A program made the position numbers and the translations under genes. Under the pieces are notes generated by a model, which saw only the letters and a program-made list of their open reading frames with translations, had not been told where the DNA came from and made no database searches. A stretch of 64,000 bases of DNA from Thermoproteota archaeon (GTDB lineage: Archaea > Asgardarchaeota > Njordarchaeia > Njordarchaeales > Panguiarchaeaceae): the NCBI GenBank assembly GCA_024720975.1, contig JANJXX010000001.1:223408-287407 (forward strand), read 5' to 3'. Below, one piece after another: positions 572-1,036 of the stretch. Each line of letters opens with the position of its first letter. Position 1 is the first letter of the stretch.

Positions 572-1036
572 ATGCAAGCAGCCAGTTCAAGATCACAAAA
601 GACCCGCTTCTACGTACCCTGGATCTTTAAGTACGGCCTGCGACTACACAAGCCCAGATACAGAATAACTAAGGTGTATTTGGGACTCGAGAAAGAATCC
701 AATCGACTGCTGATCTATGGCCTCTTGATTATTGTTCTTGCTATATTCTTTGGCGGCATATTTATGATTATCTACGAATTTACACCACCGTTAATTGAAA
801 TCGGTCAAAGACCAGCTCTAATTTACCCTGGACTCTCCCGTGAAACTTTAACTGAGTTTCTATTTATGATCATGATATTCCTGATGGCAGGAATAGGTAC
901 ATATTTGCTTAGAACCGCAGTTAGAACTGCTGAGGAGGAGTGGAGTACTGTCATATCTATTGGTTTAGTATTGACTCTATTTGCAGTGTTTGGCTTGTGG
1001 GCAATTTTCTCTATGAAGGTCGGCTTATTGAGATAG
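572..1036 (+). CDS. OSTC/DC2-like (OST3/OST6 family) oligosaccharyltransferase accessory subunit, 3 TM
   Basis: FYVPW..LRLHKP, GGIF.II..PP, QRP, E(F)L, AGIG..LL, IG.V...F....IFSMK align in order with eukaryotic OSTC/DC2; similar length. Confidence 0.7.
   Translation: MQAASSRSQKTRFYVPWIFKYGLRLHKPRYRITKVYLGLEKESNRLLIYGLLIIVLAIFFGGIFMIIYEFTPPLIEIGQRPALIYPGLSRETLTEFLFMIMIFLMAGIGTYLLRTAVRTAEEEWSTVISIGLVLTLFAVFGLWAIFSMKVGLLR

What the first reader, a model, noticed from the sequence alone, without database searches (positions are those of the whole stretch)
572..1036. OSTC/DC2-like subunit
Aligns end to end with remembered human DC2: FYVPW..LRLHKP vs YRVPF..LKLKKP; GGIFMII..PP vs GGIIYDV..PP; QRP vs QRP; MAGIG..LL vs MGGLG..IL; IFSMK vs VFMRMK. 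It has no thioredoxin domain, so it resembles the co-translational DC2 type rather than MagT1/TUSC3. Most archaea are thought to use a single-subunit AglB.
Basis: partly seen in the sequence, partly recalled or inferred. Interest (0 to 1): 0.75.

Follow-up and report, generated by a model that had tools for sequence, protein, structure and literature searches.

The report
Asgard DC2/OSTC-like glycosylation subunit
This gene encodes a small three-helix membrane protein of a Njordarchaeota-type Asgard archaeon that is a real but diverged relative of human OSTC/DC2, a helper subunit of the protein N-glycosylation enzyme. The family is already known in Asgard archaea under the name 'Ost3/Ost6', so the call is right but not new.

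Summary
On its own the protein does not detectably match human OSTC: phmmer against the PDB gives no OSTC hit at E<=10, and Pfam OST3_OST6 scores 13.7 bits against a cut-off of 27. The homology holds through intermediates. The Njord clade matches a profile of 24 other archaeal members (hhalign 99%, E 3e-18). That profile matches human OSTC/DC2 at E 2e-17 (66 bits) and MagT1 at only 6e-5 (26 bits). Yeast Ost3/Ost6 are not hit.

The architecture is DC2-like:
- three transmembrane helices;
- a basic N-terminus that should face the cytoplasm;
- no thioredoxin domain and no cysteine;
- an invariant Lys149 that aligns with human K142, in the FMRMK segment DC2 needs to assemble with STT3A.

The family is found in 281 of 301 genomes sampled from the phylum. 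The genome encodes a eukaryote-like STT3 on another contig, whose best PDB match is human STT3A. The protein is most likely a non-catalytic partner of that STT3. Docking to the translocon is only inferred.

Asgard and Njordarchaeia 'Ost3/6' homologues are already published, and this scan has noted the same family on other DNA (54 earlier notes). This is a new member of a known kind. The DC2-rather-than-Ost3/6 point is a modest refinement.

The parts
572..1036 (+). CDS of the DC2/OSTC-like protein (154 aa plus stop)
   Evidence: ORF listing and translation. Orthologues at 47-74% identity. The family is in 281/301 genomes of the phylum. Against genus orthologues dN is 0.27-0.39 with dS saturated.
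535..564 (+). Putative expression signals: TTTATTTA (535-542, TATA-box-like) and GGGGG (560-564, Shine-Dalgarno-like, 7 nt before the ATG)
   Evidence: Read directly from the sequence. Inference only; no transcript data.
572..694 (+). N-terminal segment, residues 1-41, predicted cytoplasmic. It carries the clade-invariant PWIFK...KP.Y motif.
   Evidence: Residues 1-45 hold 11 K/R against 2 D/E. The motif is invariant in A3. About 30 of 40 members of A2 keep 'PW'. AF2 confidence is low here, about 50-60.
695..778 (+). TM helix 1 (residues 42-69) with invariant G62 (the GG motif)
   Evidence: AF2 helix 42-69. Hydropathy peak 2.81. G62 is invariant in 40 sequences and aligns with the human GG of 'TGGIIYD'.
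779..838 (+). Extracytoplasmic loop (residues 70-89) with PP 72-73 and a predicted beta-hairpin at 75-82
   Evidence: AF2 strands 75-77 and 80-82. It aligns with the lumenal loop of human OSTC.
839..925 (+). TM helix 2 (residues 90-118) with invariant E95 and near-invariant G109
   Evidence: AF2. E95 aligns with the E of human 'QYIMEGL' and G109 with the G of 'GGLG'.
941..1021 (+). TM helix 3 (residues 124-150), ending in IFSMK with invariant K149 (nt 1016-1018)
   Evidence: AF2. K149 is invariant in 40 sequences and aligns with human K142 of FMRMK. That segment is needed for DC2 assembly into the STT3A complex (PMC5674889).

Best explanation
The gene encodes a DC2/OSTC-type member of the OST3/6 superfamily. 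It is a 154-residue protein with three membrane helices, its N-terminus in the cytoplasm and its short C-terminus outside.

It most likely acts as a non-catalytic partner of the organism's eukaryote-like oligosaccharyltransferase STT3/AglB, which is encoded on another contig. By analogy, its helices and the conserved C-terminal Lys would pack against the membrane domain of STT3, as human DC2 does with STT3A.

A further possibility rests on analogy with DC2 only. Its conserved cytoplasmic N-terminus and outer loop may hold the enzyme next to the SecYEG/Sec61 channel, so that proteins are glycosylated as they emerge.

Shown here: homology, architecture, conserved residues, distribution across the phylum, and the presence of STT3. 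Inferred: binding to STT3. Speculative: docking to the translocon.
For: - Homology chain: the window protein scores 70.2 bits against a profile that excludes the Njord clade. The Njord profile matches that family at hhalign 99%, E 3e-18. The family profile matches human OSTC at E 2.3e-17 to 7.2e-18 over nearly full length.
- 11 of 15 family members hit PF04756, best E 5.4e-8.
- Architecture: three hydrophobic segments, AF2 helices 42-69, 90-118 and 124-150 (pLDDT 77.8), a basic N-terminus and no Cys.
- The best structural matches include DC2 chains: Z 8.5, 8.3 and 7.9, with 22% identity. DC2 ranks 2 of 48,161 representative chains.
- Residues invariant across the family (G62, E95, K149; G109 is near-invariant) are identical in human OSTC. 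K149 corresponds to K142 in the FMRMK assembly motif (PMC5674889).
- The family is found in 281/301 genomes of the phylum and in 89/90 high-quality ones.
- The genome has an STT3 whose best PDB hit is human STT3A (E 8e-61). No archaeal AglB chain is hit at E<=1e-3.
- An STT3 gene lies 4-7 kb away on the same strand in 4 of 20 diverse Asgard loci.
Against: - There is no direct evidence of any interaction. In this genome the gene is not near STT3 (different contig). It is not within about 1.5 kb (6 kb for L039-L041) of STT3 in 33 related loci.
- Its neighbours are housekeeping genes.
- The window protein alone is not detectably similar to OSTC or to PF04756 at curated thresholds. This clade has also changed family motifs: GGxYD has become GGIFM, and the invariant Q has become E91.
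- No KCP2, Ost4, Ost5, OST48 or ribophorin I was found in this 81%-complete genome.
- The three-helix fold is not distinctive. An unrelated chain scores Z 9.0.
Confidence: 0.75

Rival explanations
1. It is an Ost3/Ost6/MagT1-type oxidoreductase subunit whose thioredoxin domain is supplied in trans by a separate gene (a 'split Ost3/6').
For: MagT1 is a significant though weaker hit of the family profile (E 2.3e-5 to 6.4e-5, TM2-4). Many genomes of the phylum have separate ORFs that match the thioredoxin part of PF04756.
Against: 14 of those ORFs were read. They are WCxPC thioredoxins with no signal peptide and no convincing membrane span, so they look like ordinary cytoplasmic thioredoxins. No ORF spans both halves of the profile in 121 genomes. 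None was found in the window's own genome. The window protein has no Cys. OSTC outscores MagT1 by about 40 bits.
Confidence: 0.04
2. It is a true homologue of DC2/Ost3 but works independently of the oligosaccharyltransferase, for example as a small membrane scaffold or transport-related protein. MagT1/TUSC3 were once proposed to be Mg2+ transporters.
For: There is no conserved linkage to STT3 or agl genes in this clade. Pfam names the family a 'transporter family'. This clade has diverged at family motifs.
Against: In the eukaryotic relatives matched here with solved structures (DC2, MagT1), the protein is a subunit bound to STT3. The residue needed for that assembly (K142/K149) is invariant (PMC5674889). 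The family's near-universal presence parallels the eukaryote-like STT3 of Asgard archaea. STT3 lies nearby in some lineages.
Confidence: 0.17
3. The resemblance is chance: this is a generic three-helix membrane protein.
For: The pairwise and Pfam scores of this sequence alone are insignificant. The fold match is not distinctive.
Against: Profile-to-profile and profile-to-sequence links score E 3e-18 and 2e-17, with nearly full-length coverage and identical invariant residues.
Confidence: 0.02

Closest known systems
Human/metazoan OSTC (DC2), the STT3A-specific subunit of OST-A (PDB 6S7O chain H, 8PN9 H, 8B6L J)
   Same: About 150 residues, three TM helices, N-terminus in and C-terminus out, no thioredoxin domain. 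The GG, PP, E, G and C-terminal K positions are shared. It is the best sequence hit (66-68 bits to the family profile) and among the best fold hits.
   Different: The window protein alone is too diverged to hit it. GGxYD and the Q before the conserved E have changed. The N-terminal motif has a 4-residue insertion relative to other archaeal members. No KCP2 partner was found. The membrane is presumably the plasma membrane, not the ER. Association with STT3 and Sec61 is untested.
Ost3p/Ost6p (yeast), TUSC3/MagT1 (human OST-B, PDB 6S7T chain H)
   Same: Same superfamily (PF04756). The three archaeal helices align with the last three of four TM helices (MagT1 residues 221-325). Fold Z is 7.2.
   Different: Those proteins have a signal peptide, a lumenal CxxC thioredoxin domain and a fourth TM helix. 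Here there is none of these, and no Cys. Similarity is much weaker: 26-27 bits to MagT1, and yeast Ost3/Ost6 are not hit at E<=10.
The Asgard (and TACK) archaeal 'Ost3/Ost6' eukaryotic-signature protein, e.g. Promethearchaeum syntrophicum DSAG12_01196 (PMC11284389; PMC11417166; PMC10307638; PMC12411855)
   Same: This is the same family. The window protein matches a profile of other archaeal members at 70 bits. The family is present in 281/301 genomes of the phylum. Many members carry PF04756 over positions of about 170-290.
   Different: The window's genus is a diverged branch that the Pfam model misses (0/4 genomes). The papers read here label the family Ost3/Tusc3-like and do not mention DC2/OSTC.

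Membership tests
OST3_OST6 superfamily (Pfam PF04756) | The sequence itself passes the curated Pfam threshold | tested here: not met
   13.7 bits, E 0.041, against a cut-off of 27. The whole-genome scan with the model finds nothing in the own genus.
OST3_OST6 superfamily (Pfam PF04756) | Homology to the TM module shown through intermediate sequences | tested here: met
   The window protein scores 70.2 bits against a profile of non-Njord members. hhalign A3 against A4 gives 99%, E 3e-18. 11/15 members hit PF04756, best 5.4e-8. In the phylum, 79/121 genomes score over the cut-off.
DC2/OSTC type | About 150 aa, three TM helices, N-terminus cytoplasmic, C-terminus outside | tested here: met
   154 aa. 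Hydropathy shows three segments. AF2 helices are 42-69, 90-118 and 124-150. The N-terminus has 11 K/R against 2 D/E. Topology is predicted, not measured.
DC2/OSTC type | No thioredoxin domain | tested here: met
   No Trx match, no Cys, and no room in 154 aa. No longer fused relatives were found (weak evidence). No ORF spans both halves of PF04756 in 121 genomes.
DC2/OSTC type | Sequence closer to OSTC than to Ost3/6/MagT1/TUSC3 | tested here: met
   For the family profiles: OSTC 67.8 and 66.3 bits, MagT1 27.3 and 26.0 bits, and yeast Ost3/Ost6 not listed at E<=10.
DC2/OSTC type | Conserved C-terminal FMRMK-type motif needed for assembly with STT3A | tested here: met
   IFSMK 145-149. K149 is invariant in 40 archaeal sequences and aligns with human K142. 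Its functional role comes from PMC5674889.
DC2/OSTC type | Orthology to eukaryotic DC2 rather than to Ost3/6, shown by phylogeny | not tested
DC2/OSTC type | Physical subunit of an STT3 complex and contact with Sec61/SecY | not testable with these tools
   No complex prediction is available. Only indirect support: STT3 is present in the genome, and STT3 lies within 4-7 kb in 4 of 20 Asgard loci.
DC2/OSTC type | Partner subunit KCP2 present | tested here: inconclusive
   The only PF09775 hit (E 0.002) lies in a non-coding frame over another gene. The genome is 81% complete, and small TM proteins are hard to detect.
Ost3/Ost6/TUSC3/MagT1 type | N-terminal lumenal thioredoxin domain with CxxC, and four TM helices | tested here: not met
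   Three TM helices, no Cys, no Trx domain.

The most novel reading that the evidence does not exclude
The archaeal proteins catalogued as 'Ost3/Ost6' are in fact DC2/OSTC-type. On this reading, a translocon-docked, OST-A-like module (an STT3A-like catalytic subunit plus a DC2-like adaptor) predates eukaryotes and works at the archaeal plasma membrane next to SecYEG. The thioredoxin-bearing Ost3/6 proteins would be a later eukaryotic derivative. This would run against the view that DC2 and STT3A arose with multicellularity (PMC5674889).
Probability: 0.3. Interest if true: 0.6.

Novelty: new member of a known kind. Interest (0 to 1): 0.3.

Why it matters
The gene adds a diverged Njordarchaeota member to a eukaryotic-signature family that is already catalogued. 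Pfam misses this member.

The wider point comes from the family rather than from this gene. The archaeal proteins look like the co-translational adaptor DC2, not like the oxidoreductase Ost3/6. This genome's STT3 also scores best against STT3A. If that holds up in a phylogeny and in complex structures, coupling of N-glycosylation to the translocon would be an archaeal inheritance. That could be tested in cultured Asgard archaea or by complementing human DC2-null cells.

Tried and rejected
- Direct similarity: phmmer of the protein, and a Njord-only profile, against the PDB found no OSTC. Pfam and NCBIfam on the protein gave only sub-threshold hits.
- The only other PF04756 'hit' in the genome (C11:158039) is an ABC-2 permease and is spurious.
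- Fused or longer forms: none found (weak evidence). No ORF spans both halves of PF04756 in 121 genomes.
- 'Split Ost3/6' idea: the Trx-part hits are ordinary cytoplasmic WCxPC thioredoxins. Rejected.
- Fold search: Foldseek E-values are all above 0.1. DC2 chains come top, but the three-helix fold is not distinctive, and an unrelated RDH subunit scores Z 9.0.
- Gene context: the gene is not next to STT3 here or in 33 loci with short flanks. The conserved downstream neighbour is a SerK-like serine kinase, with no link to glycosylation. Neighbours in 20 other genomes are housekeeping genes.
- Other OST subunits in the own genome: ribophorin I, OST48, Ost4, Ost5 and KCP2 gave nothing credible.
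- dN/dS: dS is saturated, so no ratio could be computed.
- The search for related loci with the wide alignments had no usable conserved stretch. The single protein found nothing. The narrow alignment found three MAG contigs: two titled Candidatus Njordarchaeota and one titled 'uncultured Nitrososphaerota archaeon'.
- The Nature 2017 Asgard paper is not held in the library.

Full report
**What is there**

Window 572-1036 (+) is an ATG-initiated ORF of 154 codons.
- It starts 42 nt after the end of an RNA 3'-phosphate cyclase gene (RtcA; PF05189 and PF01137).
- It ends 4 nt before the next ORF.
- A TTTATTTA box lies at 535-542 and a GGGGG run lies 7 nt before the ATG.
- The product has three hydrophobic segments, a strongly basic N-terminal 45 residues (11 K/R against 2 D/E) and no cysteine.
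- AlphaFold2, run with a 15-sequence alignment, gives three long helices (42-69, 90-118, 124-150) and a small hairpin in the first loop. Mean pLDDT is 77.8.

**Is the resemblance to DC2 more than chance?**

Taken alone, the sequence does not show it.
- Pfam OST3_OST6 is the top hit, but at E 0.041 and 13.7 bits, against a cut-off of 27.
- phmmer against every PDB chain does not list OSTC at E<=10.
- A profile of the seven closest relatives does not list it either.

The link is firm through intermediates.
- An exhaustive HMMER search of 1.8 billion representative proteins finds a family of 140-165-residue proteins down to E 1e-3.
- A 24-sequence alignment (A4) that excludes the Njord clade and its nearest outgroups matches the Njord-clade profile by hhalign at 99%, E 3e-18, over 141 columns. 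A profile rebuilt locally from the same 24 sequences scores the window protein at 70.2 bits.
- A4 hits human OSTC (6S7O chain H) at E 2.3e-17, 66 bits, covering residues 14-144 of 149.
- The 40-sequence profile A2 gives OSTC at 7.2e-18.
- 11 of 15 members hit PF04756, best E 5.4e-8.

**DC2 type or Ost3/6 type?**

- The same profiles score MagT1 at only 26-27 bits (E 2e-5 to 6e-5), over its last three of four TM helices. Yeast Ost3 and Ost6 are not listed at E<=10.
- The archaeal proteins have no thioredoxin domain.
- No longer relatives were found (weak evidence).
- In 121 genomes of the phylum, no ORF spans both halves of the Pfam model.
- The separate hits to the thioredoxin half of that model are WCxPC thioredoxins with no signal peptide or membrane anchor. 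A 'split Ost3/6' can therefore be dismissed.
- The columns invariant across 40 archaeal sequences are G62, E95 and K149, and G109 is near-invariant. All four are identical in human OSTC.
- K149 aligns with human K142 in FMRMK. [quoted passage not shown]
- Structure agrees but does not decide. DC2 chains are the top Foldseek hits (probability 0.8-1.0, but E above 0.1). They give Z 8.5, 8.3 and 7.9, against 7.2 for MagT1.
- DC2 ranks 2 of 48,161 representative chains, behind an unrelated three-helix subunit at Z 9.0.
The archaeal 'RP/KP' aligns with human C14-P15. That part of the alignment lies within the HMMER envelope but has low confidence.

**Organism and distribution**

- The closest named relatives are Candidatus Njordarchaeota MAGs, at 56-67% identity.
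- The assembly is 1.36 Mb and 81% complete. That fits the genome-reduced Njordarchaeia described in PMC12411855.
- The family profile finds a match in 281 of 301 genomes sampled from the phylum, and in 89 of 90 high-quality ones. Most have a single match.
- The Pfam model misses all four other genomes of the window's genus, and the window's own genome too. This clade is a diverged branch: GGxYD has become GGIFM, and the family-invariant Q has become E91.

**Context and likely function**

- The genome encodes one STT3 (C19; 700 aa). A TRAP-beta-like protein is encoded directly downstream of it.
- This STT3 scores best against human STT3A (E 8e-61, 210 bits). Yeast Stt3 scores 144 bits and STT3B 137 bits. 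No archaeal AglB structure is hit at E<=1e-3. Raw scores are not a phylogeny.
- The DC2-like gene is on another contig.
- Its downstream neighbour (1040-1888) is a SerK-like free serine kinase with a ParB_N fold (5X0B, E 7e-14). The pairing is kept within the order but suggests no link to glycosylation.
- In 20-kb stretches around the gene in 20 diverse genomes of the phylum, an STT3 gene lies 4-7 kb away on the same strand in four. Three of these are from one family. The remaining neighbours are housekeeping genes.
- Function therefore rests on homology. The protein is most likely a non-catalytic partner of STT3/AglB.
- Docking to the SecYEG channel is suggested only by analogy. In DC2, the cytoplasmic N-terminus and lumenal loop are needed for the functional STT3A-Sec61 interaction (PMC5674889). 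The N-terminal motif is also conserved in the archaeal family.

**What is already known**

- Ost3/Ost6 homologues in Asgard archaea are established. PMC10307638 cites earlier work for Ost1 and Ost3. PMC11417166 expressed the MK-D1 protein in HeLa cells. PMC11284389 names DSAG12_01196.
- PMC12411855 reports N-glycosylation homologues, including an OST3/6-like tree, for Njordarchaeia.
- In the held library, no paper links the Asgard proteins to DC2/OSTC.
- PMC5674889 ties DC2 to organisms that have STT3A.
- This scan has already reached the same reading on other DNA: 54 notes in at least 50 genomes. The same stretch was also read in an overlapping window.

**Verdict**

Novelty is low: this is a new, diverged member of a known family. 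The DC2-rather-than-Ost3/6 refinement and the STT3A-like catalytic subunit keep open a moderately interesting evolutionary reading. That reading needs a phylogeny and complex modelling, neither of which could be run here.

Noticed in passing
window 1040-1888 (+): A 282-aa ORF starts 4 nt after the DC2-like gene. It is a SerK-like free serine kinase with a ParB_N fold (PDB 5X0B, E 7e-14) and has no Pfam hit at E<=1. The adjacency to the DC2-like gene is conserved across the order (L007-L011, L016, L017).
   Followed up: partly
G000:C19 (L036:7118-9220 - and L036:6462-7094 -): The genome's single detected STT3 is followed directly by a TRAP-beta-like protein (PF05753, 23.8 bits, over the cut-off). 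The STT3 scores much higher against human STT3A (210 bits) than against STT3B (137 bits) or yeast Stt3 (144 bits).
   Followed up: partly
window 34425-34964 (+): A 179-aa protein with a hydrophobic N-terminus (signal-peptide-like), a beta-rich middle and a C-terminal TM anchor. It gives a weak TRAP_beta hit (E 0.006). It may be a second TRAP-like paralogue.
   Followed up: no
L036:9558-10187 (-): A 209-aa protein joins an Rpb5 C-terminal domain (RpoH-like) to an N-terminal Mrr_cat / restriction-endonuclease-like domain. This resembles the two-domain eukaryotic Rpb5 rather than the short archaeal RpoH.
   Followed up: no
phylum-wide, e.g. L062:237-653 (-), L066:287-733 (-): Many genomes of the phylum encode thioredoxins of about 135-160 aa with an N-terminal charged 'ELxxIRxKKxxEL' extension. 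They score above the PF04756 cut-off on its thioredoxin half. They lack signal peptides and convincing TM helices, so Pfam-based counts of 'Ost3/6' in Asgard genomes may include them as false positives.
   Followed up: partly
window 2918-4084 (+): A 388-aa coiled-coil protein with a weak DUF7121 match. Function unknown.
   Followed up: no
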